Shown here one piece after another: positions 1 through 48,308 of a DNA stretch of 48,308 nt. Made by a program: the position numbers and the translations under genes. The notes under the pieces were generated by a model. The model saw only the letters and a program-made list of their open reading frames with translations, did not search any database and was not told the DNA's origin. The stretch is from IMG/VR virus record IMGVR_UViG_3300048855_000042, positions 1 to 48,308 of that record; one strand, 5' to 3'. The first letter of the stretch is position 1. Each line of letters opens with the position of its first letter. Source of the DNA: a virus.

Positions 1-127
1 TCCCTGACACGGCGATGCGCTGCGAGTTGGCGAGCACGATACCGTCGAAATTGTTAGGCTGGCTCTTGCTCGACCCGGAGACGATATTCCCGGCTATGGT
101 GCAATCCGCGCTTCCCTCTTGGAGAAC
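1..127. repeat. Terminal overlap, copy 1: bases 1-127 are identical to 48182-48308 (unique genome length 48181 bp; circular or terminally redundant)
   Basis: Read directly: the first 127 nt equal the last 127 nt. The overlap lies inside one continuous minus-strand ORF, so it is not an att site. Confidence 0.95.
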
Positions 128-1759
128 AACGCCGTGGGTGTGGGTGTTCTCTATGAAGTTCCCAGTAATCGTTGCGCGCTCAGCGGACTGAAGATTTATA
201 GCGACGAGGCACTCGTCGAACTGATTGCAGACAATCATGTTCTCCGTGTTGTTATACATGTATACGCCAGCACCGGCGCCGCCTGACCCTCCATCGCGGA
301 TGGCGTTGTTCGAGATCATGCCCCCGTACACTTCTTGACCGAAGTACACGCAATCTCCGTCTATCCCGCTGATGTAGTTGTCGGTGATCCACGGAAACGC
401 GGTGATCCGGTCGGGCCACACGCCGTCCGCGCTCAACCCCCGCTCGGAGATCTCCTGGACAACGCACTCTGCCAGCCTGAAATGTGCTGTCCCTTTAAGG
501 ACGATGCCGTTGCCCTGCGTGTTGTTCGTCCGGTTGCCGTCGAACGATATGCCCCGCACGGTGATGTGCTCGAGGTACGTCGAGTTGTCGCCGACGTCCA
601 GCATGTCGCAGTTCGCGCCGTCGGCGAGCCAGAGATACGTGCCACTGCCCTCGCCGGTGATCGTCAGACGGTTCTTCAGCACAGACACTGTGCTCGCCGG
701 GCGGTAGACACCGCTGGGGAGGTGAACGCTGCCGTGGTCCGGAGCCAGGTTGACCGCCGCCTGGAACGCTGGGGCACAGTCACCGCCAGAAACTGCGCCC
801 CACCAGGCGATATTGTACGCGCCTTCGACGATGCGCACCCACGCGCCGGACGCGCCGGTTGGATCCGACGCAGGAGCGACGTAGAGACCCTGCAGCGTGT
901 CAATCGCGACCATGCCCGAGAGATCGCTCGCCACCCACTCGAACGTGCCGGCGCGGAGGCTCTCACCGAGGTACGCGAGCGACCATCCGGCGGGCAGCTG
1001 TGCCAGCTCGACACGGGTGGCCACGGGGACAACGATCGTCTTTTTCTTGATCTGTGGGAGACCAACGGCGCCGTCCGGGAGAACTGCCCCCTCCGCCACC
1101 TGCGCCCATTGCTCCGCCTGCACGGCTGCGTCCTGCGCCTGGACGGCGCTGGTACCCGCCACGCCGGCGTCTGTGCTGGCGCTTGCCGCAGCAGCTACTG
1201 AGGTGGCGGCTGCGTTCTGGGCGCTCGTGGCTGAATTCTGAGAATTCGTCGCCGCTGACTGCGCAGCGCTCGCGCTGTTGGCGCTGGCCGATGCGCTCCC
1301 CGCTGCTGCGCCGGCAGAACTCGCGGCCGCACTCGCGCTGCCGGCCGCCGCAGTCGCGGCTGCCTCCGCATCGGCTGCGATACCCGAGAAATTCGCCAAG
1401 AGCGCCCATTTCGTCGGATCGAAAGTGGCCCCCGACGTATGCGCCGTCGTGCAGATATAGAAATCGTTGTTGTAGAAGACCGTCGAGGTCGTGTTGTATT
1501 GCGTCAGCGGCGCCCACGGCGCAGGGGGCTCGAAGCTCAGCCGGACGGAAGCCCCCAACTGGTCGATACCGACGACACCGGTCGCGAGACCGCCTGCCGG
1601 CGTCGTGAATTTCTTCAGGAAATCCACAATCTCCTGGGTCGACGTCGCCACGTCCTCGAATTGCGCGTCGACGTCGTTGCCCGGCAGTGGTTTGTTGGGA
1701 TTGGCGTTCTGAAACCCGAGGAAATCGAACGTCAACTCATACGGATCCGGGTACGGCAT
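1..1759 (-). CDS. Tailspike / tail fibre 2, 5' part of a 777-codon ORF that wraps the junction (1759->1, then 48181->47607)
   Basis: Absent from the ORF track because it runs off the window edge. Hand translation from ATG 1759 (2 nt after the stop of 1762-3483) stays open to base 1 and is in frame with 48308->47607. The N-terminal ~120 aa are paralogous to fibre 1 (DAQF, PWAP, TVFY, HTSGxTFD). An Ala/Ser heptad linker follows (ASAAASSAGAAAGSASASANSAS...), then beta-helix-type repeats (YNIAWWGAVSGGDCAPAFQAAV, RLTITGEGSGT, ISNNAIRDG, ITGNFIEN, IAGNIVSG). Confidence 0.85.
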   Translation of the reverse strand, partial: MPYPDPYELTFDFLGFQNANPNKPLPGNDVDAQFEDVATSTQEIVDFLKKFTTPAGGLATGVVGIDQLGASVRLSFEPPAPWAPLTQYNTTSTVFYNNDFYICTTAHTSGATFDPTKWALLANFSGIAADAEAAATAAAGSASAAASSAGAAAGSASASANSASAAQSAATNSQNSATSAQNAAATSVAAAASASTDAGVAGTSAVQAQDAAVQAEQWAQVAEGAVLPDGAVGLPQIKKKTIVVPVATRVELAQLPAGWSLAYLGESLRAGTFEWVASDLSGMVAIDTLQGLYVAPASDPTGASGAWVRIVEGAYNIAWWGAVSGGDCAPAFQAAVNLAPDHGSVHLPSGVYRPASTVSVLKNRLTITGEGSGTYLWLADGANCDMLDVGDNSTYLEHITVRGISFDGNRTNNTQGNGIVLKGTAHFRLAECVVQEISERGLSADGVWPDRITAFPWITDNYISGIDGDCVYFGQEVYGGMISNNAIRDGGSGGAGAGVYMYNNTENMIVCNQFDECLVAINLQSAERATITGNFIENTHTHGVVLQEGSADCTIAGNIVSGSSKSQPNNFDGIVLANSQRIAVSG

Positions 1760-1761
1760 CG

Positions 1762-3483
1762 TCAGTGCGCCTTCATGATCTTGTTGACGACGAGCGTCGG
1801 CTGCACGTTCGGGTGCGCCTCGTCGCCGCCCTGAAAGTCCGTGGTGATCCCGTGCTGGTGATCGCCTGCAAGTTCTGTCTGAAACGTCTCGTTGCCTGTC
1901 GTGACATAGGTGAAGGGGAGCCCCCCGCCTGTCGCAGTCGTGTTGGTAGAATTCGTCTTATGCTGGTAGTTGTGCTGATGGTTGCCAGCGACATTCGTCG
2001 TGCCGCCATGTTGATGGCGCGGGCCCTGACCCTGCGTGAGTTGGTGCCGATCGGCGCCGCCAGCGGCGCCCAGAACAACGCCATTGATGCCAGACGTACC
2101 GAGGCCGGAATTCGTCAGACGGTTCGCGGCGACACCGCCCATGTTGTCTTTGCCGGCGCCCAAGCGCCCGCGATAGTCCGGCGCGAGCGGATGGCCTCCG
2201 ACGCTGCCGTACGGGCTGCCCGCGTCGATCAGCGCTTGCCGGAGGACCGGGTACGTTGTCGTGATCTGCTGCCCTGCCGCGGCTACCCATCCGGCCGGAA
2301 TGGCGCTCTCGGGGAGCCCGAAGTCCCAGACGATACCAACCGGTATCAGGAGATCCCTGAGCGCCTTCAAGGCCGTCTGGTCGATCTTGGTAGCGTCGAC
2401 AGACGACGCGGCGAGCTCCGTCTTCGTGACCGCGCCGGCGACGATCGCCCGCGTCGCCACGCTGTCGTCGGCGAGCTTCGGCTCCGTGACGACGCCATCC
2501 GCCAACTTCGCGGGCGTCGAGACGCCGCCATCGGACACGGCGCGGAACTCGGCCGAGCCGAAAATCACCCAGAAATAGGCCGTGCCGTTCGGCGGGGTGG
2601 TCGTGCGGTGCAGGGTCGTCCCGGCGATCGTGTAGTCGACGCCCGGGCGCTTCGGCGCGCCAGCCTCGACAAACAGGACGCGCTCGGCGACGACCGGGTC
2701 TTCCGGGAGCGTCACATCCGTCGAGACGCCGTCCCACGTGCCACCACCGGTCGACCAATTGTTCGTCTGAAACGCCGTGTGAGCCTGATCGGCCCAATAT
2801 TTCGCCGAATACTGATCCGGACCCGTCTCGACCGGGCCATCCATCTTCTCGGCCCATTCCTCGGCCAGATCGGCATACATTTTCGCGTCGGAGACGTTGC
2901 CCGGCGCGTCGATGATCGCCTGGATATTCGTCGCAACCGTCTCGATCGCCACGATGTTGGTGGCGATCGTCTGCACGTTCGGCGACGTCGCCCACCATTT
3001 CGCCGAATACTGATCCGGGCCCGTCTCAACCGGGCCATCCGTCTTCTCGGCCCATTCCTGCGCCAGGGCGGCCGCGGCTTGCGCCTCGGTCGTCGCCGCG
3101 GTGAAATCGGCGATCACTTCCCAGAGCGTCTCGTCGAAGGTGTCGCCGGAGGTGTGCTGGGTTAGAGCGCGCCAGAAGATGTCGTCGTAGAAAACGGTGT
3201 CGAGCGCCGTGTAGACGGTGTTCGGCGCCCATGGCGTCGGCGCGTTGAAGCCGAGCGTGATATCCGACTTGAGCTGCTCGCGGCCGACCGTGTTGTTGGC
3301 GAGGTTGCCGTCGTCGCGCTGGATCTTGCCCAGATTGGCGATGAGCTCGTCGGTCGTGACCTGGATCGCCGAGAACTGCGCGTCCAAGCTGACGCCCGGC
3401 TGAGGCTTCAGCGGGTATTGCGCCGACCAATTGGTGAAGGCGAAGCTTGGCAGATATCGTTCCGGCTGGGGCATCGTCGCCAT
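1762..3483 (-). CDS. Tail fibre 1 with fibre repeats and C-terminal collar-type domain
   Basis: 573-aa ORF. Two copies of EWAEK(T/M)DGPVETGPDQYSAK(W/Y)WA. Collar-like segment IPAGWVAAAGQQI...PDYRGRLGAGKDN. HxH-rich tip (NHQHNYQH, DHQHG). Confidence 0.9.
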   Translation of the reverse strand: MATMPQPERYLPSFAFTNWSAQYPLKPQPGVSLDAQFSAIQVTTDELIANLGKIQRDDGNLANNTVGREQLKSDITLGFNAPTPWAPNTVYTALDTVFYDDIFWRALTQHTSGDTFDETLWEVIADFTAATTEAQAAAALAQEWAEKTDGPVETGPDQYSAKWWATSPNVQTIATNIVAIETVATNIQAIIDAPGNVSDAKMYADLAEEWAEKMDGPVETGPDQYSAKYWADQAHTAFQTNNWSTGGGTWDGVSTDVTLPEDPVVAERVLFVEAGAPKRPGVDYTIAGTTLHRTTTPPNGTAYFWVIFGSAEFRAVSDGGVSTPAKLADGVVTEPKLADDSVATRAIVAGAVTKTELAASSVDATKIDQTALKALRDLLIPVGIVWDFGLPESAIPAGWVAAAGQQITTTYPVLRQALIDAGSPYGSVGGHPLAPDYRGRLGAGKDNMGGVAANRLTNSGLGTSGINGVVLGAAGGADRHQLTQGQGPRHQHGGTTNVAGNHQHNYQHKTNSTNTTATGGGLPFTYVTTGNETFQTELAGDHQHGITTDFQGGDEAHPNVQPTLVVNKIMKAH

Positions 3484-3541
3484 TGCGCTCGAGGCCGGTG
3501 GCGAGCCGAAAATCTGCCGAAAGTCGTTAAAGACTACAACG
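3457..3541. repeat. 85-bp direct repeat, copy A (partner 46603-46687); on the minus strand it supplies the leader plus the first 9 codons (MATMPQPER) of fibre 1
   Basis: 70-nt perfect core (3457-3526 = 46603-46672), then 11 of 15 further matches. Confidence 0.95.
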
Positions 3542-3705
3542 TCCGTCCGAGAAACTCAATAGGCGACGCGGCCCAGGGGTAGCTTGCGAAACGTGAAGCC
3601 GAGTTAGGTGGCGCTAGCCCCAAGCGCCGCCTCACGTCTACCGCGTCAATGACCCTCGATGTCGGCGAGGGTCAATCCGTCCCGCCGGCCGCTCCCTCTT
3701 CGGTA

Positions 3706-3760
3706 AGCCCGGCTCAGCCCGGCTCAGCCCGGCTCAGCCCGGCTCAGCCCGGCTCAGCCC
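3706..3760. repeat. Tandem 10-bp repeat (GGCTCAGCCC / AGCCCGGCTC), 5.5 units
   Basis: Read directly. Non-coding, 27 nt downstream (minus sense) of the stop at 3788 and about 220 nt upstream of the fibre 1 start. Confidence 0.95.
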
Positions 3761-3787
3761 AGCTTCGGGGCGGCCGGCGGTGCGCCT

Positions 3788-4015
3788 TCAGCTTGCGACG
3801 CAGCCCTCGATAGCCTTGCGCAGCGCGTTGGAGCGATCCTGGCGCACGTTTTCGTCCCCGTTCTCATGGATTGCGTGCGCCAGGGCGGATACCCGCTCCC
3901 AATGTGCCAGCAGGAAGAGACGGAGGTTCGCCTCTGGGATGTCCACGCCAAGATCGCGGCGCATCAACTCGGACAAATGCTTTTCGGGATCCCGGTCTCT
4001 ACTGGCGACACCCAT
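3788..4015 (-). CDS. Hypothetical 75-aa protein
   Basis: ORF-track 3788..4129 trimmed to ATG 4015, which has GGGAGAG 7 nt upstream. MGVASRDRDPEKHLSELMRRDLG... No recognisable domain. Confidence 0.5.
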   Translation of the reverse strand: MGVASRDRDPEKHLSELMRRDLGVDIPEANLRLFLLAHWERVSALAHAIHENGDENVRQDRSNALRKAIEGCVAS

Positions 4016-4111
4016 ATCGAAGCTCTCCCTTGTGGCTCTGCGTCGAGACTGCAGACGAAACATACAGCGATCAAACGCTACAGCAGATGCCGACCGTCTG
4101 CAAGCGCTTCT

Positions 4112-4132
4112 GGCGTTAAAACAGATCACCGG
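4112..4132 (-). promoter_or_regulatory. Copy of the 22-bp intergenic motif (CCGGTGATCTGTTTTAACGCC)
   Basis: Shares an exact 19-mer, ATCTGTTTTAACGCCAGAA (4108-4126 minus), with 17414-17432 plus. Intergenic, oriented with local transcription. Confidence 0.6.
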
Positions 4133-4393: not shown

Positions 4394-4933
4394 CTAGCTC
4401 AGCATTTCACTGGCGTCTGGCTCGCTAACTGGCTCACCATCGATCACGTCAACAGGCTTTGCCCTCGCGGATAGGTCACGCTCAAGACGCTGCACCGCGT
4501 CGCGTAGCTCGCCTAGGCTCATCTCGCTTAGAGGCTTCTCGCCGTCCGGTTCCTTCGGCTGTGCATAGGTGCTCGGGCCGAAGCCAGCGCGGTCTAGGAG
4601 CGTCTTTGCAGCCTCTAGACGCGTCTTGTCCGTGGCGCCTGGCTTGTCGACGAGATCGATCAGCGTCTTTACCGCCTTTGCAACGCCCGTCGTGCGCAAA
4701 TCGGCGCCAGCCTCGCCCATCATCCGCACCTGAACCTGCGGCGAACGGATGAGGGAACGCGCGGTCTTGAAGGCCTCTATACCCTCGTAACCCATTGCCT
4801 CTGCTGCTCTAAGCGGCTCATATCCTTTTAGTAATAGATCTATAAACGACTGCTGCAGCGGCGTTAATTCCGCCACACGCGTGAACGTGTCCATCCGCTT
4901 ATCAAAACCGCTCATCTGTCCATCCGTCTGCAT
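4394..4933 (-). CDS. terS: Terminase small subunit-like protein
   Basis: ORF-track 4394..4975 (TTG) trimmed to ATG 4933 (alternative ATG 4915). LTPLQQSFIDLLLKGYEPLRAAEAMGY...TRLEAAKTLLDRAGFG resembles the HTH plus core of Terminase_2-type small subunits. Confidence 0.6.
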   Translation of the reverse strand: MQTDGQMSGFDKRMDTFTRVAELTPLQQSFIDLLLKGYEPLRAAEAMGYEGIEAFKTARSLIRSPQVQVRMMGEAGADLRTTGVAKAVKTLIDLVDKPGATDKTRLEAAKTLLDRAGFGPSTYAQPKEPDGEKPLSEMSLGELRDAVQRLERDLSARAKPVDVIDGEPVSEPDASEMLS

Positions 4934-5035
4934 TTCCGCCCGACGAGAAATATAGCGAAACGCTTGCCTCGCCAAGGGTTCGCCGCGTCAAAGGCGTCGG
5001 CGCTGAAAATTATGTCGCCTTTGTCGTCTTTTCCG

Positions 5036-13712: not shown

Positions 13713-13824
13713 CGGATTTGTCCTCGTTGTCGTCTGCCAAATCGACTATAGCGTTTTTTCGCTTGACTGCAATAGTCGTTAAAGCATATGGTCACGGCTA
13801 TAGCAGACATGAGGCTTGTTGCCG
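13713..13824. promoter_or_regulatory. Divergent early control region
   Basis: CTTGAC at 13762-13767. Two palindromic CTATAG hexamers (13746-13751, 13798-13803). Inverted CGACTAT (13743-13749) / ATAGTCG (13772-13778). The 12-mer ATAGTCGTTAAA at 13772-13783 is shared with 27214-27225. Confidence 0.6.
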
Positions 13825-25387: not shown

Positions 25388-26581
25388 TCATTCGCCCTTC
25401 CCGGCCCGGTCGAGCGCCTCGGCGAGGTACTCCGCCGAGTGGTGCCCGTAGACCCTATCCGTCGTCGCCACGGTGTCTCCGATGAGCCTTGCGACGTCAT
25501 AGATCGACACCCTGTCCTGGAGCAGATGCGTCACTCGGCTGTGCCGCAGGATATGCGGACTACCGTCAACGCCGATCGACCTGCAGAGCTGCGCGAAGGG
25601 CCGGTAGAGGTCGTTCGGCGAGCCGAGCACCCATTCGTTTTCCCGCTCGGCGTGCAGCCGCTCCATCAGCGGCCGGAGCTCCTTGTCGATCGGCACGACG
25701 GGCCGGCGCTTCTTCGTCCTCTGCTCGCCGGGCTTGGCGAGATGGATGCGGTTGTCGGCGAACTTGACCTGCCGCCACTCGAGCGTCTCGATCGCGTTGC
25801 GACGGGAGCCCGTGTAGTAGGCGATGTCGATGAAATCGCGGAGCCGGCGCGCCACCTCGTGACGGATGCGGAGACGGGCCTGGTCGTCTTTCGTCGTTGC
25901 CGCTAGCGCCGCCTGGGCGAGATCCGCGACGTTCTTGGCGGCCGCAGCCCGGAGTGCGGCGAATTGCGTCTTGGTGAGCCACGGAGCCTCACCCGTCTCC
26001 TCGGCGTCGCGCCGGTCGCGCGGGTACTCGAACTGCGGCATCTCATGAGACTTGAGGTCCGTCAGCCGCCGCATGCGAATGGCGTGGCCGACGGCGGCGC
26101 GCAGCGTCACAAGTTCCCTACGGATGGTCGCGTCGACGCCCGCCAGGCTCTTCCGGCCGCGGTTGTCGCGCTGGGTCGCCACGTCGCCGCGGCGGCGGGC
26201 GCCGGCGTAGGCCCGGCATTTTGGGATGTCGATGCTCTTGACGGGGTCGTCTTTAAAGAACGCCTTGAGGTGCCGGATGGCGTTCTCCTGACGGACCTTG
26301 TCCTTGACCTTCTCCTGAACGTGCTCCTGGAAATAGTCGTCCAGGATGCGCGCGACCGTCAGCTCAGCATCTCCTCCGCTGTTGGCATAGATGGATCGAC
26401 CCTCGACGAGGAACGTGCCGAAGCGAACTTCCGCTTCAGCGCGGTCTCGCGAACGAAGGCTGAAGCGCTTTGTCTCTGAAATGGACTTTCCGCGGGGGTC
26501 GACCCGGCTGACGGTCCAGAAGGCATAATAGATGCCGTTCCGTTGGTCGAGCCAAGGCGTTGTTTGCCTCGGGCGTGCCAT
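25388..26581 (-). CDS. int: Tyrosine integrase
   Basis: ORF-track 25388..26716 trimmed to ATG 26581 (MARPRQTTPWLDQRNGIYYAFW, arm-binding-type N-terminus). C-terminal catalytic residues in ...YYTGSRRNAIETLEW...GSPHILRHSRVTHLLQ...GHHSAEY. Confidence 0.9.
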   Translation of the reverse strand: MARPRQTTPWLDQRNGIYYAFWTVSRVDPRGKSISETKRFSLRSRDRAEAEVRFGTFLVEGRSIYANSGGDAELTVARILDDYFQEHVQEKVKDKVRQENAIRHLKAFFKDDPVKSIDIPKCRAYAGARRRGDVATQRDNRGRKSLAGVDATIRRELVTLRAAVGHAIRMRRLTDLKSHEMPQFEYPRDRRDAEETGEAPWLTKTQFAALRAAAAKNVADLAQAALAATTKDDQARLRIRHEVARRLRDFIDIAYYTGSRRNAIETLEWRQVKFADNRIHLAKPGEQRTKKRRPVVPIDKELRPLMERLHAERENEWVLGSPNDLYRPFAQLCRSIGVDGSPHILRHSRVTHLLQDRVSIYDVARLIGDTVATTDRVYGHHSAEYLAEALDRAGKGE

Positions 26582-26745
26582 CGAAGCCTCTCTACTGTTT
26601 CGGGGCTGAACAGGGCCTGCCCCCTCAGCGTGAAGCCATCGGGGGCTATCAACCCGTCTCGGATGTATCTTTGGACTGTGCGGGTCGTCGTGCATAACGC
26701 ATCGGCGACCGCGCACGTCCGGAGCATGCGCTCACTGTCCATCAC
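26359..26745 (-). CDS. Xis/AlpA-like HTH protein whose 3' two-thirds overlap int in another frame
   Basis: N-terminal 55 aa, LRTCAVADALCTTTRTVQRYIRDGLIAPDG, is MerR/excisionase-type HTH. The remaining 73 aa are S/A/R/P-rich and overprint int codons 1-74. Confidence 0.45.
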   Translation of the reverse strand: MMDSERMLRTCAVADALCTTTRTVQRYIRDGLIAPDGFTLRGQALFSPETVERLRWHARGKQRLGSTNGTASIMPSGPSAGSTPAESPFQRQSASAFVRETALKRKFASARSSSRVDPSMPTAEEMLS

Positions 26746-27199
26746 GTTCCTTTTCGATCAGGTTCATGATGTCGAGGGCCGTTTTGAGCGACAATTCGCG
26801 CTCCAGATAGAGCGCGACCTTGCCGTTCCCGACCTCGACCATCGATACTCTCGAGCGCTCCTCGTGCGGGTAAGGCCGCGATCCGGAGCCTCTGTGCGGG
26901 GGCGGGCGCCTTGTGTGAAGCTGGTCTTCCTCGAGGAGGCTTTCCGGGCTCACGCCGAGCGCTTTCGCGAGGGCGTGGAGCCGTTCCGGCCGAGGCAGCT
27001 TCAGGCCACGGATGTAAGACGAAATGCTGTCAGGCGTAATCTTCTTTCCTGGCGGCATATGGGCCTGCGCTCGGGCAGTGAGTTCGGCCTGGGTGAAGCC
27101 TTTATCACGCATCGCTGCTTCGAGGCGCCGCCTGAATTCTTTAACGGCAGATCTTGTGGCCTCATCGCCCGACGGGTGCTGCGTACTGGGTGGGGTCAT
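26732..27199 (-). CDS. XRE-family repressor-like protein (no S24 peptidase domain)
   Basis: FRRRLEAAMRDKGFTQAELTARA...SISSYIRGLKLPRPERLHALAKALGVSPESLL. Confidence 0.8.
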   Translation of the reverse strand: MTPPSTQHPSGDEATRSAVKEFRRRLEAAMRDKGFTQAELTARAQAHMPPGKKITPDSISSYIRGLKLPRPERLHALAKALGVSPESLLEEDQLHTRRPPPHRGSGSRPYPHEERSRVSMVEVGNGKVALYLERELSLKTALDIMNLIEKERDGQ

Positions 27200-27221
27200 G
27201 TGTGCTGCTCTTTTTTAACGA

Positions 27222-27250
27222 CTATCGCGACAATTACGACAGCCGTCAAG
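27222..27250 (-). promoter_or_regulatory. Sigma70-type promoter of the repressor gene
   Basis: Minus strand: CTTGAC (27250-27245), 17 nt, CGATAG (27227-22). The 12-mer ATAGTCGTTAAA follows, covering the expected start site. No obvious SD before ATG 27199. Confidence 0.5.
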
Positions 27251-27270
27251 ACCTATAGCACACTTGGACG

Positions 27271-28143
27271 TTAGACGAAAGGAGGGCTCGACCTCTGAGA
27301 CAGCGCCTGATCAGTGGGAACTTGCGCACGCGGGCGTGGCGCCCGCTTCAAAAAGTCGCTAATCACCTGCGCGCCGAGGGTAGCCGCTTGGCTCTGCGGC
27401 GCAAAGGCAAGCTGGTCAACAGGTAGCGGTTGTAGCGCAGCCGCCGGAGCGGCCGGTTGCGAAGGCGCTATTTGAGCCGTTTCCTGCGGCTCAGAAGACT
27501 GCCGCGCCCCCTGGCGGATGCCTCGCGCCAGCGACGCCCATATAGATCCGTTGTCGTCGCTATCGACAGACAAAGGCGACGCGCTCTGCTGTTCTCCAGC
27601 AGACAAAGACGGGTTCGCAGCCGCGACTGCCGGCGCCAACTGGCCAGCGAATGAAGCGCCCATCGCAGCAGGCCCAACGGGCGCGTCCCCCAAGGCGTGC
27701 ATGACCTTGGCGCCGAACATGTCGGCGAACGCCCCGGCCGTTTTGCCGGAGCCGGCGTTGAGCCGGGCCGCGTCATCGCCGACAAGTGACGCGAGCGGCG
27801 CTTCTGGGTTCGCTAAGATCTTAGCCGCCCCGGCCGGCCCCTGTTGGTGGGCGAGGTAGAGCGACGTGGGCGTGACCGGAAGCCCTCGCGACCGCAGGAA
27901 TGCTGTGTTGTCAGCCATCAGCCGCGCGCCAGCGTCAGCCGCTGCAGCGGCGTCGAACTTGTTCCGGAGGCCATACTGCTGCGCTGTGCTGTCGATGAAC
28001 TGAAAGAGGCCGCCAGCGCTCGAGTTTGGGTTGCGAGCGTTCGGGTTCAGCCCGCTCTCGATCTTGGCCGTTGCCAAGAGCGCCGCTGGATCGACACCGT
28101 AGCGTCGAGCGGCTTGCGCGATGAGTTCAGCGATACCGGGCAC
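27271..28143 (-). CDS. Lytic transglycosylase (SLT domain) virion protein
   Basis: AKIESGLNPNARNPNSSAGGLFQFIDSTAQQYG, with the catalytic Glu in ES. Confidence 0.85.
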   Translation of the reverse strand: MPGIAELIAQAARRYGVDPAALLATAKIESGLNPNARNPNSSAGGLFQFIDSTAQQYGLRNKFDAAAAADAGARLMADNTAFLRSRGLPVTPTSLYLAHQQGPAGAAKILANPEAPLASLVGDDAARLNAGSGKTAGAFADMFGAKVMHALGDAPVGPAAMGASFAGQLAPAVAAANPSLSAGEQQSASPLSVDSDDNGSIWASLARGIRQGARQSSEPQETAQIAPSQPAAPAAALQPLPVDQLAFAPQSQAATLGAQVISDFLKRAPRPRAQVPTDQALSQRSSPPFV

Positions 28144-28156
28144 AGCCTTCTGTCCT

Positions 28157-29392: not shown

Positions 29393-29393
29393 G

Positions 29394-35374: not shown

Positions 35375-35375
35375 A

Positions 35376-36014: not shown

Positions 36015-36081
36015 CGCGCGCTCCACGTTTCATGGATGCCGGCGCGACGAATTCCGACCAGTACCGTCGTCTTTGCAGACT

Positions 36082-39801: not shown

Positions 39802-39851
39802 GAGCTGCTTTCAGCGGGTTGCCCCTCCCCGCACCCGGGGAGGGGTGGGGG

Positions 39852-40250: not shown

Positions 40251-40284
40251 GGTTAGGGCCTCCTGCCCCTGAGAATGAGGAAGA

Positions 40285-42487: not shown

Positions 42488-44672
42488 CCTGAACGAGCGG
42501 TTGGCCGCCTATAGGTGCCTGAGCGGCCGGAAATGCCGGAACGCCGGGCCCGTTTTGCACGTCCGGGCCGGTCGGCGCGTTCTGGCCGCCCTGGCCACCC
42601 TGCATGTTCGGGTCCGTCGCCGGGTCGCCCGTCGGCAGCGCCGGCGGCTTCGAGGCTGCCGCGTTCATCGCCGAGATCGAGGGCAGCCCCTCGACATAGA
42701 AGTCGTCGAAGTCCTCGCCGAGGATATCGGCCGCCTTCCGGGCGATATTGGCCGGTTTGACCCCGGGAACTTGGATGATGAGCGGCGTCAGCTGCTGCAG
42801 AACCGCCATCTCCTGTGCCTGGTTCGGCCGCCCGGTCGAGCCGGCACGGATGTCGAGATAGAGCGACTTGACCACCTGCTCGCGCGTCGGCGGCAATTCC
42901 GGCCAGACCGCGCCGGGCCCGACGATCTCGATCACCTGCTCCTTGTGCATCTCCATCAAAAAGAGCTCGCCGAGCGCGCGGGCGAGCTGCGTCAGCGCGT
43001 CGTCCAGGTCATCGACGTTGTCGGCGATCGTCGAGCCGCGCGACTGTTCACCGATGGCGGCCTCGGTCGCCGTCCCCTTGCTGGTGCCGCCGAGGTTCGC
43101 CTCCTGCGAGCCGACCGTGCGCATGATGTCGCTGAGCGCGTCCTCGACCATGTACTGGTTCGGGTCGATGCCCACCATGGGCATGCGCTGAATGAGCTTC
43201 CCGACATCGTCACCAGGCGCGAGCCCCTTCAGCGCCAGGATCGCGCTGGACGGATGGCTCGACAGCTTCTGGAGGTCCGTGTCCTCCAGGCGACCTTTGG
43301 GGGTGACGTATTTCGGCCGGTTGGCCTGGCGGTGCTCACGCAGCCCTTGGCGCGACCGGTTATAGTCCTGCTGTGGATGGCGGATCAGCCAGACGTCGGA
43401 CGGCGGATAGAGCTGCTTGTCGTTCTCCACCTCGTTGAAGACGACGCAGAACAGGTCGTAGAAGCGCTTCAGCTTCACGTCGGGCGCGGCCGGCGGCTTC
43501 AGATAGTTCGGGTAGCCGTCGCAGATAGTGAAGACCTGCTGCGTGCGCTTATCCCAAACTTCCCAGAGCTTGGCGCAACCCTGCGTGTCGGGCGTGGCCT
43601 CTTTCCCGGGGGCGGCCGTCACCGCGCCAGCGCCGTCCGGCTGGTATGTCGTGAAAGCCGTGCCGACGTCGACCTGATAGTCCTCGTAGATCTCCTTCGG
43701 CGTCTTGTCGTACTCGTAGGCCACGAAATTGGCACCGCGCAGCGTCTTCAGATGCTTGCAGTTGCGATCGATGATGACCTGTTTCGGCCCGGGGAACGCC
43801 AGAACCGCCCCCTCGGAGACAATGACGTCCTTCGGCTCCTGGAGCTCCGACTGCATGTTCTGCAGCTCGGCGGCGGTCGCACTGTCAGGCGACGCGTCAC
43901 CGTCGGCGACCTCCTTCGCGTCGGCCTGCATTGCGGCGGTGCGCGTCGTCAAATCCGGCGCCATCTCGTCGCTCATCGGCGACGGCTGCATGACGCGCTG
44001 GAACTGCAGACGGATATAACCGACGCCGACGGTCTTCGTGCGGCGCACAACGGCCTTGAGCTCTTCCTTGTAGCAGGCCGCCTCGTCGTGGAGCGTCTCG
44101 TCGACCAGGATCTCGAGCGTTTTGCCCATCCGGTCGATCATGCGCATGTATTCCTGCGCCGCTGCCACCTCCTCGAGGAGCGCAATCGCCTGTGGATCGC
44201 CCTGCGCCGGCATGCCCGTCATGGGGTCGATCATCGGCGCGCCGGTCATCGGGTCGACTGGCGGTTGCGCGGCGTGCAGCGCCTGCTCCAGCGACGTTGG
44301 ATCGCCGTCCCAGATCTGGTAGAGCAGCTTCTTCTTGCGCTTCGCCACGACCGTCGGGTTCTTGGCGTAGAGCGCCGAGACGACGGTGTTGATGTGCCGG
44401 TTGGCGACCGGGACGGTGTATAGGTTTTCCTCGACCCATGCCTTGTCGGCGCCTTCGGCGGCGATCTGCATGCAGTAATCCATGCGCTTGAAGGCAGGCT
44501 CATGAAAGGCCTTCTCCTTCCGGAGGCGCTCGCTCCAACGCCGGATGAGCGCCTGCTGCGCCGGGTCAGCCTCCTGACCGTCGGATGGCGCGCCACCGGT
44601 GGGCAGCGAACCGTATTCGTTGCCACCCTCGACCTTGTCGAGCCCGACCTCCCATTCGACGTTTCCGGGCAT
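42483..44672 (-). CDS. Portal protein
   Basis: ORF-track 42483..44741 trimmed to ATG 44672 (TGATG overlap with the terL stop). 729 aa, in the standard position. Confidence 0.85.
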   Translation of the reverse strand: MPGNVEWEVGLDKVEGGNEYGSLPTGGAPSDGQEADPAQQALIRRWSERLRKEKAFHEPAFKRMDYCMQIAAEGADKAWVEENLYTVPVANRHINTVVSALYAKNPTVVAKRKKKLLYQIWDGDPTSLEQALHAAQPPVDPMTGAPMIDPMTGMPAQGDPQAIALLEEVAAAQEYMRMIDRMGKTLEILVDETLHDEAACYKEELKAVVRRTKTVGVGYIRLQFQRVMQPSPMSDEMAPDLTTRTAAMQADAKEVADGDASPDSATAAELQNMQSELQEPKDVIVSEGAVLAFPGPKQVIIDRNCKHLKTLRGANFVAYEYDKTPKEIYEDYQVDVGTAFTTYQPDGAGAVTAAPGKEATPDTQGCAKLWEVWDKRTQQVFTICDGYPNYLKPPAAPDVKLKRFYDLFCVVFNEVENDKQLYPPSDVWLIRHPQQDYNRSRQGLREHRQANRPKYVTPKGRLEDTDLQKLSSHPSSAILALKGLAPGDDVGKLIQRMPMVGIDPNQYMVEDALSDIMRTVGSQEANLGGTSKGTATEAAIGEQSRGSTIADNVDDLDDALTQLARALGELFLMEMHKEQVIEIVGPGAVWPELPPTREQVVKSLYLDIRAGSTGRPNQAQEMAVLQQLTPLIIQVPGVKPANIARKAADILGEDFDDFYVEGLPSISAMNAAASKPPALPTGDPATDPNMQGGQGGQNAPTGPDVQNGPGVPAFPAAQAPIGGQPLVQA

Positions 44673-46312
44673 CACCAACCTCTGCTTCCCTGGCGCGCCT
44701 TCTCGGCCGCCTCTTGCGCCTGCACAGTGCGAAACAGCCATCCAACCGTTCCGACAGCCGGCCCGTCATCGTTTGCGGCCGTGATCGTGCCTTCACTCGG
44801 CCCGGTCTGCTTGAAGAGCCCGAGGCCGATGTAGGCGAGCCAATCGACGAAGTCGTCGTGCGTCCCGGCGTCGAACTTGAGGAGTTGGTCCTTGGCATCG
44901 CGCCACCACGGCGCGAAGGCCGGGAAATGCACCTTCCGCATCCGCATGCGACCCTGGATGGCCCGGGCGCGCTTGCGCTTGTCCGACGACGGCGTCACGG
45001 GGTCGATGACGGTATAGATATTCTCTTTCTGCATCCGGACGCGCAGGAACGGGCCGAAGGACTTCGAGATGTTCTCGCTCTCCATCCACCAGAGCAGCGG
45101 CTGATGGCGCTTGATCTGGTTCAGGATCTCCTCGACCTGATCATCCGTCTCCAGGCGGTCCATGCAGACGTCGGGCATCACCCAAATGTCGTCGTTGCTG
45201 TCGACCCCGACGCAGCCGATGACGGAGAAGTCGTTGCGCTGCTTCGTGCCGACGGCGTGGTCGGACGCGCCGTACTTCTCGAGCCGCTCCGGGAGCTCCG
45301 ACATCTCATGATATTCGACGATGCTCGCGGCCTTGAAATAGTCGCCGTCCTCGGGCGTCGGCTTGCCCATGTAAAGGGCGCCGAAGACCCGCTCGTCGTT
45401 CATCTTGGCCTCGGCGAGCAGCCGGAGGTCCTTCATGGTCGGCGAGAGCGCGGCGATCGGCTTCGAGCCGAACATCGACACGACGAGCTTGTCCGTCTGC
45501 GGCTCGAGCGTCAGGCCAAGCGCCTGCGCGAGGCTCGGGTCGTCGACGACGGCCGGCAGATTGTAATAGTCCCAGAGGTCGGAGATACCCTTGTATCGGC
45601 GGTTGCGCTCCGGGTGATCGGGGTCGCATAGGCGGCCAATCAAATCGTCCTGGTGCCAACGGGTGTGCACGACGATCATCCGGAAGCCCGTCCTGGCGCG
45701 CGAAAAGGCGACGCCGGTGAACCATTTCCAGATCTTCTCGCGATAGCTCTCCGACCGGGCGTCCTCGTCGTTCCGCATCGGGTCGTCGATGATGAAAATG
45801 TCCGCCGGCTTACCCGTGCCGGAGCCGCCGACGCCGACGAAGGAGAGCTTGCCGCCCCTCGTCGTGATGAGCTGATCGGCCGCCGCCTTGCGCAGCTCGT
45901 GCTCGGGGAACACCTGGTGGTGCACGGGGCTCTCGGCGATGTTCTTGACGTCGTCGCCGAAGTCGTTGGCGAAGTCCTGGTTGTAGGCGCCGACCATGAC
46001 GTTCAGGCGCGGGTCGTTGCCGGACATCCAGGACGGCCCGGCGCGTGTCAGGATCTGGCTCTTGCCGTGCTGAGGCCCGATCGAGACCGCCACGCGATCC
46101 TTTTCGCCGCGGTAGACCTTCTGCACGATCTGGCAGAGCATGCGCGCCTGCGGCGTGATCTCGTAGAGCGACTTCGTCACGTCGTCCGGATCTTCCGGGT
46201 GCGGCATCGTCAGCCGCATGTAGGTCAGGAGGTCCTCGCGCGCCTCGGCGAGCGCCAGCTGGCGCCGCGTCGCCTTGAGGAGTTCCTCTTTGATGCGGAT
46301 TTCGTCGCTCAT
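44672..46312 (-). CDS. terL: Terminase large subunit
   Basis: ORF-track 44672..46705 trimmed to ATG 46312 (ATGA overlap with the upstream stop). Walker A VSIGPQHGKSQ. IFIIDDP, VHTRWHQDD, and a nuclease half with DHAVG... Confidence 0.92.
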   Translation of the reverse strand: MSDEIRIKEELLKATRRQLALAEAREDLLTYMRLTMPHPEDPDDVTKSLYEITPQARMLCQIVQKVYRGEKDRVAVSIGPQHGKSQILTRAGPSWMSGNDPRLNVMVGAYNQDFANDFGDDVKNIAESPVHHQVFPEHELRKAAADQLITTRGGKLSFVGVGGSGTGKPADIFIIDDPMRNDEDARSESYREKIWKWFTGVAFSRARTGFRMIVVHTRWHQDDLIGRLCDPDHPERNRRYKGISDLWDYYNLPAVVDDPSLAQALGLTLEPQTDKLVVSMFGSKPIAALSPTMKDLRLLAEAKMNDERVFGALYMGKPTPEDGDYFKAASIVEYHEMSELPERLEKYGASDHAVGTKQRNDFSVIGCVGVDSNDDIWVMPDVCMDRLETDDQVEEILNQIKRHQPLLWWMESENISKSFGPFLRVRMQKENIYTVIDPVTPSSDKRKRARAIQGRMRMRKVHFPAFAPWWRDAKDQLLKFDAGTHDDFVDWLAYIGLGLFKQTGPSEGTITAANDDGPAVGTVGWLFRTVQAQEAAEKARQGSRGW

Positions 46313-46629
46313 ATGCCGAACCACTCGCGCATCTTCGACCACGCCATGGCGCCAATGCCGCCGGCGGCGAGCGTGACGAGCAGCGCTCCACCGACGGCGC
46401 GCTGCTCGTATTTCTCGACCCGCTCGTTGACCTCCTCGCCTGCCTGGATGCGCTTCTCGTGATCGGCCGAGCGCTCCTCGACCTTGACCATCCGTTCGGC
46501 CATGGTGTCGAGCTTGTCGTCGATGCGCGCGACGGTTCTCTTGACACCGCTCATGTCCGCCGTGAGCGCGCCGAGCTTCGTGAGGATTTCGTCGAGTTGG
46601 GTTCGTTCCGGCTGGGGCATCGTCGCCAT
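46309..46629 (-). CDS. Coiled-coil protein with C-terminal TM anchor, 106 aa, translationally coupled to terL
   Basis: MATMPQPERTQLDEIL...GGALLVTLAAGGIGAMAWSKM. The first 9 codons lie in the 85-bp repeat. Confidence 0.65.
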   Translation of the reverse strand: MATMPQPERTQLDEILTKLGALTADMSGVKRTVARIDDKLDTMAERMVKVEERSADHEKRIQAGEEVNERVEKYEQRAVGGALLVTLAAGGIGAMAWSKMREWFGI

Positions 46630-46687
46630 TGCGCTCGAGGCCGGTGGCGAGCCGAAAATCTGCCGAAAGTCGGTAAAGCATATAACG
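46603..46687. repeat. 85-bp direct repeat, copy B (partner 3457-3541)
   Basis: See copy A. Confidence 0.95.
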
Positions 46688-46820
46688 CGCGGCTGGGTAA
46701 TTCAATAGCCGAAGCCGAGCAAAGGGCGACCTGGACGGTTCGTCGAGAAGGGCGGCTTATTGACAGGGCGTGCTTATTGGGCGATGCCCCAGAGACCGCC
46801 TGTCACTGGGGAGTGAGACA

Positions 46821-47597
46821 GTGGGATTCATCTCGAAGATTGCCAGTTTGCTTTCAGACCGCTCGCGGACCCCTAGGACCGCGCCAATCGATAAAAACCT
46901 GATTTTCGATATCGGCCTCAACACGGGACAAGACGCCGAGTTCTATCTGAAGAAGGGCTTTCGGGTTGTTGCTGTGGAAGCAAACCCAGCCATTGCTGAA
47001 AAAGCTCAGGAACGGCTCGCGCACTTTGGACCACAGCTCAGGATCGTGAAACGCGGCATCGGGCCGAATGACGGAGTTCTTCCGTTTTACGTGAGCCGCC
47101 GACACCACGAGCAGAGCACCTTCCTCAAAGAATACACTGAGGGGTGGGATCTTGGTTATGACGAGATCCAGGTACCTGTTGGGAGCGTCATCCCCATTAT
47201 CGCTGAATTCGGCACGCCCTATTATATGAAGATCGACATCGAGGCGTGGGACATGGTCGTCCTGAGCCAGCTGAAGGAAACCGATTACCGGCCCACCTTC
47301 ATCTCTGTTGAGACAGGGCCAACAACTGATTGGGTCGACGCCCTGGAAGGCCTTGGATACACGGGGTTCAAATTAGTGAACCAATCGAAAAACCCTGAGA
47401 TGACGCCGCCCAAGCCCGCGAAGGAGGGCCAATACACCCAGCACGTTTTTGAGTGGGGGACGAGCGGCCTATTCGGGGACGAGATCCCCGGCGAGTGGCG
47501 GACTTCCGACGTGGTGCGCCGGCAATGGCGGGCCCACATCGACGCCGGTTTCCCGGAGGGGCTATGGTTCGATATTCACGCTCGCTGGCCAAAATAA
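46821..47597 (+). CDS. FkbM-family methyltransferase (moron, opposite strand)
   Basis: ORF-track 46770 trimmed to GTG 46821, with GGAG upstream. IFDIGLNTGQDAEFYLKKGFRVVAVEANP...YYMKIDIEAWDMVVL. Many A/T-ending codons, unlike the neighbouring genes. Confidence 0.8.
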   Translation: MGFISKIASLLSDRSRTPRTAPIDKNLIFDIGLNTGQDAEFYLKKGFRVVAVEANPAIAEKAQERLAHFGPQLRIVKRGIGPNDGVLPFYVSRRHHEQSTFLKEYTEGWDLGYDEIQVPVGSVIPIIAEFGTPYYMKIDIEAWDMVVLSQLKETDYRPTFISVETGPTTDWVDALEGLGYTGFKLVNQSKNPEMTPPKPAKEGQYTQHVFEWGTSGLFGDEIPGEWRTSDVVRRQWRAHIDAGFPEGLWFDIHARWPK

Positions 47598-47606: not shown

Positions 47607-48308
47607 CTACCCCACAAGGCGGCCTGTGAATCTGGATACGGGCGACAAGCTGATCGTCTTGGCGCCCCCGTAAACGGCGAGGTCGATCTCAATGAAATCG
47701 TCGGCGGCCAGGTAGACGTTGAGACTTCCTTGGACGACCGTCTGTGAAGCGTTATCCTGGCTATCCCACACGTTGCCAGACCACGCGTTATAGAAGACGG
47801 GGGCGGCTGGGTTTCGCCTGAAGAACGCGAGCGCCTTCGTGTGCCCAGCGGCCATACCGGTCAGGATCAAGCTGAAATCGAACTGATAGGTCCCGGCGAT
47901 CGGCGCCGTGAACGTGCCGTTGGACTGGGTGAAAGCGTTCGCTGTGTCCCGAACGACGGTCCACCCCGGGTTTATACGGTAGACCGTACCGTCGCCCGTG
48001 ACGTTCGTGCCCGTCACAGTCGCCTCGAACACAACTCCCTCGGCCTGCACCGTCGTGTGCGCGCCCACGCGGCCGATGCGGCGGGTTGCCCCCGAGACCA
48101 CGTTCCCACTGATGCTGTTGAAATCCGACGTGCCCGTTTCCGAGATACCAGTCCCCATGCCCCATTCAGACAGAACCCTGTTCCCTGACACGGCGATGCG
48201 CTGCGAGTTGGCGAGCACGATACCGTCGAAATTGTTAGGCTGGCTCTTGCTCGACCCGGAGACGATATTCCCGGCTATGGTGCAATCCGCGCTTCCCTCT
48301 TGGAGAAC
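47607..48308 (-). CDS. Tailspike / tail fibre 2, 3' part (C1q/TNF-like C-terminal domain); 48182-48308 duplicates 1-127
   Basis: In frame with 1..1759. C-terminus GTFTAPIAGTYQFDFSLILTG...LAADDFIEIDL...SRFTGRLVG follows the C1q-domain pattern. Confidence 0.85.
   Translation of the reverse strand, partial: VLQEGSADCTIAGNIVSGSSKSQPNNFDGIVLANSQRIAVSGNRVLSEWGMGTGISETGTSDFNSISGNVVSGATRRIGRVGAHTTVQAEGVVFEATVTGTNVTGDGTVYRINPGWTVVRDTANAFTQSNGTFTAPIAGTYQFDFSLILTGMAAGHTKALAFFRRNPAAPVFYNAWSGNVWDSQDNASQTVVQGSLNVYLAADDFIEIDLAVYGGAKTISLSPVSRFTGRLVG
48182..48308. repeat. Terminal overlap, copy 2
   Basis: Identical to 1-127. Confidence 0.95.

What the first reader, a model, noticed from the sequence alone, without database searches (positions are those of the whole stretch)
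3457..3541. 85-bp direct repeats carrying leader plus first nine codons bracket a ~5-kb host-range cassette that splits terS from terL
Seen: 3457-3541 matches 46603-46687, with a 70-nt perfect core. On the coding (minus) strand, each copy provides about 50 nt of leader plus ATG GCG ACG ATG CCC CAG CCG GAA CGA (MATMPQPER). The two genes it heads are otherwise unrelated: the collar-domain tail fibre, and the 106-aa membrane protein coupled to terL.
The leader has a GCUCG-N10-CGAGC hairpin ending 3 nt before the AUG, and no obvious SD.
The 4,950 bp between the copies (46688-48181 plus 1-3456) contain exactly fibre 1, the tailspike and the opposite-strand FkbM gene.
Inference: the cassette was inserted or duplicated using this 5' region. 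Repeat-by-repeat recombination would excise about 5.0 kb and restore a conventional terS / small gene / terL arrangement. Alternatively, the repeat is retained because it gives both late units the same control region.
Basis: partly seen in the sequence, partly recalled or inferred. Interest (0 to 1): 0.62.

Follow-up and report, generated by a model that had tools for sequence, protein, structure and literature searches.

The report
Duplicated tail-fibre promoter-leader heading the terminase operon
A temperate phage carries a second copy of its tail-fibre gene's control region and first nine codons in front of its DNA-packaging genes, most likely to restart their expression after a foreign gene was inserted upstream; this is ordinary genome patching, not a mobile host-range cassette.

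Summary
The repeat is real. 3457-3526 equals 46603-46672 (70/70), and weaker homology runs on to about 3569-3583 (30/43, 36/57).

The order terS, fibre, spike, small protein, terL is ancestral: 22 of 24 related loci carry a fibre-anchor gene upstream of terL, and none has a bracketing repeat or FkbM.

Copy A, at the fibre gene, is the original:
- Its first codons (MPQPER...) match fibre homologues.
- Its promoter-like hexamers align with the fibre-unit upstream regions of the two closest phages.
- It carries a leader hairpin with an invariant CUCGCCA loop that those phages also have.

Copy B is the derivative. It is joined exactly to codon 2 of the 106-aa protein and supplies that protein's only usable start codon. 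terL overlaps this protein's stop (ATGA). In relatives the protein is coupled to the gene upstream; here a low-GC, opposite-strand FkbM gene sits there instead.

Best reading: the fibre promoter, leader and start region were duplicated, restoring expression of the packaging operon.

Recombination between the copies would delete both receptor-binding genes. Interest is low to moderate.

The parts
3457..3569 (-). Repeat copy A (original): fibre-unit promoter-like region, leader and first 9 codons. The exact core is 3457-3526; weaker homology runs to about 3583.
   Evidence: The coding part is homologous to the N-termini of fibre homologues. The upstream part aligns with the fibre-unit upstream regions of L003 and L067.
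46603..46715 (-). Repeat copy B (derived): the same promoter-like region, leader and 9 codons, joined in frame to codon 2 of the 106-aa protein. The exact core is 46603-46672.
   Evidence: DNA homology to L003 and L067 resumes at 46600, directly after the repeat.
3531..3559 (-). Promoter-like hexamers of copy A: TTGAGT (3559-3554), 17-nt spacer, TAGTCT (3536-3531).
   Evidence: Sequence. Both blocks are conserved between the copies while the spacer diverged. The geometry matches L003 and L067. The consensus scan did not call it.
46677..46705 (-). Promoter-like hexamers of copy B: TTGAAT (46705-46700), 17-nt spacer, TATGCT (46682-46677).
   Evidence: The consensus scan did not call it (8 of 12 matches by my count).
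3494..3510 (-). Leader hairpin, copy A: stem (U)UCGG/CCGG(C), loop CUCGCCA.
   Evidence: The block CTCGCCAsCGrCmTC occurs only in fibre-unit leaders. The stem keeps pairing through compensatory changes in L003 and L067. Only the leader occurrences of CTCGCCA have flanking stems of 4 bp or more.
46640..46656 (-). Leader hairpin, copy B (identical to copy A).
3520..3531 (+). Operator-like 12-mer AAAGTCGTTAAA, one mismatch from ATAGTCGTTAAA. It overlaps the -10-like hexamer/leader junction of copy A. Copy B has AAAGTCGGTAAA at 46666-46677.
   Evidence: The exact 12-mer lies in the early control region (13772) and at the repressor promoter (27214).
1762..3483 (-). Tail fibre gene (573 aa): N-terminal anchor domain, C-terminal collar-like domain.
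1..1759 (-). Tailspike gene, 5' part. The 777-aa gene wraps around the contig end and continues at 48181->47607. It has an anchor domain, a beta-helix and a C1q-like end.
47607..48181 (-). Tailspike gene, 3' part (end of the beta-helix plus the C1q-like domain).
46821..47597 (+). FkbM-family methyltransferase gene. It is on the opposite strand, has low GC (0.564) and is absent from all relatives (moron).
46309..46629 (-). 106-aa coiled-coil protein with a C-terminal membrane anchor. It resembles XhlA (below threshold); NCBI names a homologue DUF1515. Its first 9 codons come from the fibre gene.
   Evidence: Homologues begin MNQLDEI (L003) and MSHLDEI (L067).
44672..46312 (-). Terminase large subunit gene. 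Its start overlaps the stop of the 106-aa gene (ATGA).
4394..4975 (-). Probable terminase small subunit gene.
   Evidence: Weak PHROG terS hits. It is 35-38% identical to the L003 and L067 proteins that match Pfam Terminase_2.

Best explanation
Copy B is a lineage-specific duplicate of the fibre gene's own 5' region. That region comprises a weak sigma-70-like promoter, an operator-like site, a roughly 45-nt leader with a conserved hairpin, the translation start and nine codons.

In this phage clade the stretch between the spike's N-terminal ~250 residues and the start codon of the 106-aa protein is the variable host-range region. In relatives the 106-aa protein, and through it terL, is translationally coupled to whichever gene lies upstream, and is presumably co-transcribed from the fibre-unit promoter.

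In this phage that stretch was replaced by a different spike body plus a foreign, opposite-strand FkbM gene. This removed the old start region of the 106-aa protein and put a convergent transcription unit in the way. The duplicated fibre 5' region, joined in frame exactly at codon 2, gives the 106-aa/terL/portal unit a start codon and ribosome entry site. Probably it also gives that unit its own promoter, with the same regulatory sites as the fibre unit.

Shown: the duplication, its direction, the exact joint, and the dependence of the conserved N-terminus on the repeat's ATG. Inferred: promoter activity, the function of the hairpin, and the causal link to the FkbM insertion.
For: The gene order is ancestral:
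- A fibre-anchor gene lies upstream of terL on the same strand in 22 of 24 related loci. None has FkbM.
- No bracketing repeat is found in 8 relatives.

Copy A is the original:
- The window's fibre homology to L003 begins 2 nt after the ATG (3481).
- Fibre homologues start MPQPQKYFPSF and MAQPTPYRRSF.
- The -35-like/-10-like geometry TTGAnT-N17-TA.. is shared by copies A and B and by the L003 and L067 fibre units.
- The block CTCGCCAsCGrCmTC occurs once per relative, only in the fibre-unit leader.

Copy B is derived:
- Homology to both relatives resumes at 46600, right after the repeat.
- Homologues are 98 aa, start at M(N/S)(Q/H)LDEI, and sit 5 nt after, or overlap, the upstream gene.
- After the repeat the next in-frame start is codon 26, inside conserved sequence.

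The insertion:
- FkbM has GC 0.564 against about 0.65 for its neighbours.
- The terL start overlaps the stop of the 106-aa gene.

Signs of constraint:
- Identity is 70/70 in the stretch I predict to be transcribed, against 30/43 in the promoter part. Mismatches there concentrate in the spacer.
- The hairpin has an invariant loop and compensatory stem changes.
Against: - The promoter-like hexamers are weak by my count (7 and 8 of 12 matches) and were not called by the consensus scan.
- No strong terminator separates the spike from copy B, so read-through from the fibre promoter could also reach terL.
- The hairpin evidence rests on only three independent sequences. The shuffle control is not significant (127 of 500).
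- Predicted folds of the two mRNAs differ once the flanks are included. Copy B lacks the outer stem GGCAGAU/AUCUGCC of the native context.
- No second genome carries the duplication, so its age and any selection on it cannot be measured.
Confidence: 0.7

Rival explanations
1. First reader's main model. The repeats are the scars or substrates of insertion of a mobile ~5-kb host-range cassette between terS and terL. Recombination between them excises the cassette and restores the conventional order.
For: Direct repeats with a 70-nt identical core flank exactly the fibre, spike and FkbM genes. 70 nt of identity is enough for homologous recombination (general knowledge).
Against: The fibre genes lie between terS and terL in 22 of 24 related loci, and none of the 8 relatives scanned has a repeat. 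The fibre's 5' region is orthologous to that of relatives, so it was not brought in with a cassette. The deletion product would lack both receptor-binding proteins. No recombinase gene lies next to the region.
Confidence: 0.04
2. Relic of a lost third fibre gene. Copy B was the 5' region of a paralogous anchor-domain gene lying between FkbM and the 106-aa gene. An in-frame deletion removed its body and fused codon 9 to the 106-aa gene.
For: The clade carries variable numbers of anchor-domain genes in this region: 2 in the window and in L003, and a collar protein plus 2 in L067. The diverged promoter part (70% identity) could reflect an older paralogy.
Against: The two anchor domains within this genome are only about 40% identical in protein. 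A paralogue with a 70-nt identical 5' end would therefore need a recent conversion in any case. The joint falls exactly at the start-codon boundary where L003 and L067 also change, as expected for a module boundary rather than a random deletion.
Confidence: 0.15
3. Neutral recombination scar. Only the start codon and ribosome entry site matter. Transcription of terL comes by read-through from the fibre promoter, and the promoter-like part and the hairpin of copy B have no role.
For: The hexamers are weak. No terminator lies between the spike and copy B. Folds of the two contexts differ. Terminator-like sites in the late region are not enriched (15 found against 14.2 expected).
Against: The -35-like and -10-like blocks are kept while the spacer diverged, and the stretch I predict to be transcribed is 70/70 identical. 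The leader hairpin is conserved in relatives. Convergent FkbM transcription would oppose read-through (inference).
Confidence: 0.15
4. Assembly artefact: a chimeric join through a short repeat.
For: The record is a metagenome-type viral contig with a 127-nt end overlap.
Against: The identical core (70 nt) is shorter than the 127-nt overlap, so it is unlikely to have confused an assembly if that overlap reflects the assembler's word size (my inference). Both junctions give intact, sensible genes. Copy B provides the only start codon for a conserved protein. The promoter parts of the two copies differ.
Confidence: 0.02

Closest known systems
Morons in phage late operons, for example the 'ant moron' next to the P22-like tailspike gene (PMC2629481)
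   Same: A gene that is absent at the same site in relatives, differs in composition and is presumably expressed on its own sits inside the virion operon beside the tailspike gene. In P22 the moron is thought to affect how much late transcription reaches the downstream gene (PMC2629481, section 15).
   Different: Here the inserted gene faces the other way. The downstream operon has also acquired a copy of an upstream promoter, leader and start region. I know of no description of that for the P22 case.
Repeated leader or control elements serving several transcription units of one phage: lambda nutL/nutR, HK022 putL/putR, and the P2 and Mu late promoters (own knowledge)
   Same: Two units of one phage carry near-identical cis elements just downstream of, or at, their promoters. 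Here the element includes a small hairpin with a conserved loop and a covarying stem, placed 20-22 nt after the -10-like hexamer.
   Different: No boxA-like element, cognate antiterminator or activator was identified. Terminator-like sites are not enriched in the late operon. The copy here includes coding sequence and is a recent duplicate, not an anciently shared signal.
Stoperators and start-associated sequences of mycobacteriophages (Clusters A and K; own knowledge, and the earlier scan note e1-3486470)
   Same: Short phage-specific motifs recur at gene boundaries and promoters. The leaders here carry a variant of the 12-mer ATAGTCGTTAAA, which is also found at the early switch and the repressor promoter.
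   Different: Those are 13-24-bp sites present in many copies. This is a single duplication of about 113 nt that creates a chimeric N-terminus.
Modular tail-fibre and tailspike exchange with a conserved N-terminal anchor (T7-like, P22-like and Klebsiella phages; own knowledge)
   Same: The fibre and the spike share a ~125-aa anchor domain. The spike is conserved with relatives only over its first ~240-270 residues, and the distal part is swapped.
   Different: The repeat in question is not the exchange boundary of the fibre modules. It marks the right-hand edge of the variable region, at the start of the packaging genes.

Membership tests
Dispersed duplication of a gene's 5' regulatory region (promoter, leader and start) | Two copies in one genome, far more alike than chance allows | tested here: met
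   70/70 identical, then 30/43 and 36/57, against a background of 15.4 +/- 3.6 per 57 nt.
Dispersed duplication of a gene's 5' regulatory region (promoter, leader and start) | One copy is orthologous to the single copy in relatives; the other is lineage-specific | tested here: met
   Copy A's coding part, hexamer geometry and leader block match the fibre units of L003 and L067. Relatives have nothing like it before the 106-aa gene.
Dispersed duplication of a gene's 5' regulatory region (promoter, leader and start) | The copy actually drives transcription and translation of the new gene | not testable with these tools
   Only indirect evidence: it supplies the sole in-frame start before conserved residues.
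Moron (the FkbM gene) | Present at a site where related phages have no gene | tested here: met
   No FkbM in the 63 related loci screened, nor in 5 complete related records. In L003 the spike stop and the start of the 106-aa gene are 5-6 nt apart.
Moron (the FkbM gene) | Base composition differs from its surroundings | tested here: met
   GC 0.564 against about 0.65.
Moron (the FkbM gene) | Own promoter and terminator | tested here: inconclusive
   The opposite strand implies its own promoter. There is a TTGACA at 46761-46766, but no consensus promoter or terminator was called.
Site-specific host-range switch (Mu Gin or P1 Cin type invertible segment) | Inverted repeats flanking alternative fibre 3' segments, with an adjacent invertase gene | tested here: not met
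   The repeats are direct and lie at gene 5' ends. The flanking genes I annotated are terS, fibre, spike, FkbM, the 106-aa gene and terL. The only recombinase seen is the integrase at 25388-26716.
Diversity-generating retroelement (TR/VR pair) | Repeat pair over a variable C-terminal coding region, with adenine-specific mismatches | tested here: not met
   The repeat covers non-coding leader plus the first 9 codons. The coding part is identical, and the mismatches lie in non-coding sequence.
Diversity-generating retroelement (TR/VR pair) | Reverse transcriptase gene nearby | not tested
   I made no dedicated search. None of the annotated neighbours is a reverse transcriptase.
nut/put-like antitermination leader RNA | Hairpin with a conserved loop and covarying stem shortly downstream of a promoter | tested here: inconclusive
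   The hairpin is present at a conserved distance from the -10-like hexamer in 3 phages, and 2 of 5 pairs change on both sides. With n = 3 the shuffle control is not significant.
nut/put-like antitermination leader RNA | Terminators downstream that must be read through | tested here: not met
   15 terminator-like sites in 27000-46700 against 14.2 +/- 4.0 expected; none is strong.
nut/put-like antitermination leader RNA | Cognate antiterminator protein, or factor-independent modification of RNA polymerase | not testable with these tools
   No candidate was identified.

The most novel reading that the evidence does not exclude
The invariant 70-nt unit may be a self-contained, portable late-expression signal. 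Its hairpin, with the invariant CUCGCCA loop, would be recognised in the nascent RNA by a phage or host factor, in the manner of nut or put sites or of a translational operator. On this reading the phage keeps two identical copies so that receptor-binding proteins and the packaging/head operon are switched on and dosed together. That would explain why the transcribed part stays 100% identical while the promoter part drifted.
Probability: 0.12. Interest if true: 0.55.

Novelty: new member of a known kind. Interest (0 to 1): 0.3.

Why it matters
This is a clean, datable example of how a phage repairs an operon after a mosaic exchange or a moron insertion. It re-uses its own promoter, leader and start region, and leaves a chimeric N-terminus on an unrelated protein.

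For annotators it explains an otherwise odd shared N-terminal peptide. It also warns against reading direct repeats around host-range genes as a mobile cassette.

The side result is a leader hairpin with an invariant loop, conserved in the three closest phages and present twice here. It is a small, testable candidate for a late-gene cis signal in phages of Hyphomicrobiales, about which little is known.

Tried and rejected
- Exact searches for the leader (24-44 nt) found nothing in viral, genome or metagenome contigs. Sensitive blastn of both leaders against all fetched loci found nothing either. The duplication is so far unique to this genome.
- Searches for closer relatives by terL, the 106-aa protein and the fibre gave at best 72%, 63% and 64% identity. 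The age of the duplication could not be estimated.
I could not check reads for deletion junctions or transcript ends.
- Rfam found no family on either leader; the only hits were chance-level snoRNA matches.
The folds of the two mRNAs differ in longer context. I rejected a shared large RNA structure spanning the start codon.
- The consensus promoter scan called neither copy.
- A third partial copy at 2554-2579 shares only 13 nt and is at chance level (E = 1.4).
- The CUCGCCA hairpin was not found upstream of fibre genes in more distant relatives.
- I considered and rejected an invertible-segment model, a DGR model and an assembly artefact (see the membership tests and rival explanations).
Full report
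**The record.** The window is one complete viral contig. Bases 1-127 repeat at 48182-48308, so the circular unit is 48,181 bp. GC content is 64%. The phage is temperate: it has an integrase at 25388-26716, plus a family-A DNA polymerase, a primase-helicase, a major head protein and a portal. Its nearest relatives are prophages of Chelatococcus (Hyphomicrobiales), with terL 72% identical (L003, L004 = L030), and a 48,295-bp NCBI metagenome contig (L067; fibre 64%, terL 66%).

**The observation.**
- 3457-3526 is identical to 46603-46672 (70/70). Upstream on the coding (minus) strand the match continues at 30/43 (3527-3569) and 36/57 (3527-3583). Random 57-mers of this genome match at 15.4 +/- 3.6 positions.
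- Each copy reads, on the minus strand: CTATTGA(G/A)TT ... CGTT.TA..CTTTA, then 43 nt of identical leader, then ATG GCG ACG ATG CCC CAG CCG GAA CGA.
- Copy A heads the 573-aa fibre gene (3483->1762).
- Copy B heads a 106-aa coiled-coil protein with a C-terminal membrane anchor (46629->46309). Its stop overlaps the terL start (ATGA at 46312).
- Between the copies lie the fibre, the 777-aa spike (1759->1, then 48181->47607) and the plus-strand FkbM gene (46821-47597).
Two need qualification. The GCUCG-N10-CGAGC hairpin is not energetically unusual. A weak or absent SD is common among this phage's genes.

**Is the fibre block an insertion between terS and terL? No.**
- I fetched 63 related loci through terL. 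Of the 24 with at least 3.5 kb upstream, 22 have a gene with the fibre anchor domain upstream of terL on the same strand, 1.3-5 kb away. Where terS is detectable it lies further upstream. None has FkbM. The 24 include duplicates of the same phage from different collections; by my count about 14 distinct phages are represented.
- FkbM is also absent from five complete related records.
- Repeat searches over this region in eight relatives found no bracketing repeat.
- The terS assignment is indirect but sound. The window protein (4975->4394) gives weak PHROG terS hits. It is 35-38% identical to the L003 and L067 proteins that match Pfam Terminase_2.
- So the order terS, fibre(s), small protein, terL is ancestral.

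**Which copy is the original? Copy A.**
- The nine codons belong to the fibre. Nucleotide homology between the window and L003 fibre genes begins at 3481, 2 nt into the ORF. Homologous fibres begin ...MPQPQKYFPSF (L003) and MAQPTPYRRSF (L067), against MATMPQPERYLPSF here.
- Anchored on TTGA, the fibre-unit upstream regions of the window (A and B), L003 and L067 share one geometry: TTGA(G/A/T)T, 17 nt, then TAGTCT / TATGCT / ATAGTT / GTAACG.
- 20-22 nt further downstream, all carry the block CTCGCCA(C/G)CG(G/A)C(C/A)TC. That pattern occurs once in each of L003, L004/L030 and L067, always in the fibre-unit leader. It occurs nowhere else in the fetched loci, and twice in the window, once in each copy.

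**Copy B is a derivative fused to the 106-aa gene.**
- In L003 the homologue starts MNQLDEI..., 5 nt after the spike stop, with a GAGG inside the end of the spike gene.
- In L067 it starts MSHLDEI..., and its ATG overlaps the stop of a small upstream gene.
- Both homologues are 98 aa.
- In the window the protein reads MATMPQPER-TQLDEI.... Nucleotide homology to both relatives resumes at 46600, directly after the repeat ends at 46603.
- After the repeat, the next in-frame ATG, GTG or TTG is codon 26, which lies inside conserved sequence. The repeat's ATG is therefore needed to make the conserved N-terminus. Because of the ATGA overlap, it probably also sets terL translation.

**What changed in this lineage.**
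- The window's spike matches those of L003 and L067 only over its first ~240-270 residues (55%). Its beta-helix and C1q-like end are different.
- From there to the start codon of the 106-aa gene, the three phages have unrelated content. L003 has the rest of a 488-aa spike and 5-6 nt. L067 has the rest of a 588-aa spike and three small genes. The window has about 500 further spike residues, then FkbM on the opposite strand (GC 0.564 against about 0.65), then copy B.
- In all three, the right edge of this variable region is the first codon of the 106-aa gene.
- The simplest account is this. A module exchange or moron insertion removed the old start region of the 106-aa gene, which lay in or against the previous upstream gene. 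It also placed a convergent transcription unit upstream. An in-frame ectopic copy of the fibre 5' region then restored expression.
- I cannot tell whether this was one event or two. Nor can I exclude that copy B once headed a third fibre gene that was later deleted.

**Signs that the copied unit is functional.**
- Identity drops sharply from 70/70 to 30/43 at 3526/3527, next to the -10-like hexamer. A uniform 30% divergence would leave 70 nt untouched with probability about 1e-10 (my arithmetic).
- Within the diverged part, CTATTGA.TT and CGTT.TA..CTTTA are kept while the spacer varies. This is the pattern expected of a promoter.
- The junction carries AAAGTCGTTAAA (copy A) and AAAGTCGGTAAA (copy B). 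These are variants of ATAGTCGTTAAA, which occurs exactly at the early control region (13772) and at the repressor promoter (27214). Copy B shares about 16 nt with the 13774-13789 site. An earlier unverified note pointed me to this motif.
- The conserved leader block folds as a 4-5-bp stem with the invariant 7-nt loop CUCGCCA. RNAalifold predicts this hairpin on its own. 93% of cells pair, against 20-53% when partners are slid by 1-3 columns. Two of five pairs change on both sides.
- Of 31 occurrences of CTCGCCA in the window, L003 and L067, only the four leader occurrences have flanking stems of 4 bp or more.

**Caveats.**
- Only three independent sequences support the hairpin, and the shuffle control is not significant (127 of 500).
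- The hexamers match the consensus at only 7 and 8 of 12 positions by my count, and the scan did not call them.
- Whole-leader folds differ between the two mRNAs. Copy B lacks the outer stem GGCAGAU/AUCUGCC of the native fibre mRNA.
- No Rfam family matches.
- Terminator-like sites are not enriched in the late operon, so there is no positive case for antitermination.
- No strong terminator lies between the spike and copy B, so read-through may also feed terL.

**Recombination between the copies.** A 70-nt identical direct repeat can recombine (general knowledge). The product would be a 43,146-bp genome lacking the fibre, spike and FkbM genes but keeping an intact leader, 106-aa gene and terL. 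Such a genome could be packaged, but it could not make infectious particles unaided (inference).

**Comparison with known systems.**
[quoted passage not shown] That paper also describes the P22 'ant moron' beside the tailspike gene, which influences late transcription into the downstream gene.
- Repeated control elements serving several units of one phage are well known (lambda nutL/nutR, HK022 putL/putR, P2 and Mu late promoters, mycobacteriophage stoperators and start-associated sequences; own knowledge).
- What is particular here is that the element is a recent duplicate that carries nine codons and creates a chimeric N-terminus.
- I file it as a new member of a known kind. It is interesting mainly as a worked example, and for the small conserved leader hairpin.

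**Verdict.** The cassette-insertion and excision reading is rejected. The shared-control-region reading is supported by inference. Confidence in the duplication-to-restore-expression account is 0.7, and interest is 0.3.

Noticed in passing
window 44672-46705 (- strand): The terL reading frame stays open for 131 codons upstream of its ATG, across the whole 106-aa gene in another frame, up to a TTG inside copy B. The extension is Arg-rich and is absent in L003, so it is probably a chance open frame in GC-rich DNA.
   Followed up: partly
window 2792-2891 and 2990-3089; L003 7170-7237 and 7362-7429: The fibre gene contains an internal direct repeat of about 100 nt (83% identical; 99% in L003), spaced 198/192 nt apart. 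This looks like a duplicated domain within the fibre shaft, shared with the closest relative.
   Followed up: no
window 41363-41387; L013/L036/L005 upstream of the capsid gene: The capsid gene has an 8-bp hairpin ending 3 nt before its AUG and no SD. In the L013/L036 clade a different hairpin (GACAACC-UAUA-GGGGUUGC against GACAGCC-UCUA-AGGGUUGC) also ends about 3 nt before the capsid AUG. This may be a recurrent start-site architecture for highly expressed late genes.
   Followed up: partly
window 13766-13789, 27214-27225, 36081-36092, 42458-42469: The 12-mer ATAGTCGTTAAA and its close variants are enriched (27 sites with up to 3 mismatches against 8.7 expected). Of the 8 sites with up to 2 mismatches, at least four lie in intergenic control regions by my reading, and the two in the leaders make six. 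The 42458 site sits in a CTTGAC-N17 promoter-like context between the portal and scaffold genes.
   Followed up: partly
L003 5697-5725, 6375-6400, 6650-6680: In the Chelatococcus prophage, three successive promoter-like sites share TTGA...GCAACT(C/T)(G/C)C(A/T)AC. They precede two small genes and the fibre unit, which suggests a repeated promoter/operator family in the relative as well.
   Followed up: no
L027 2199-2233 and 3086-3120: A 35-nt element (71% identical between copies) lies upstream of both the terS-like gene and the fibre gene in a distant relative. This is another case of similar upstream elements before two late units.
   Followed up: no
window 3696-3764: Five tandem copies of a 10-nt unit (AGCCCGGCTC on the + strand) lie between the terS side and copy A. 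The stop of the 113-aa minus-strand ORF (3788-4129) abuts or falls within the array.
   Followed up: no
window 46309-46629: The 106-aa protein resembles XhlA and holin-type PHROG families below threshold, and a homologue is named DUF1515 by NCBI. This conserved membrane protein, coupled to terL, might be the missing lysis partner.
   Followed up: no
L067 3159-3728: The relative L067 has a separate 189-aa collar-domain gene directly before its fibre gene. That gene is 39% identical to the C-terminal 195 residues of the window's fibre, so the collar domain is either fused or free-standing in this clade.
   Followed up: no
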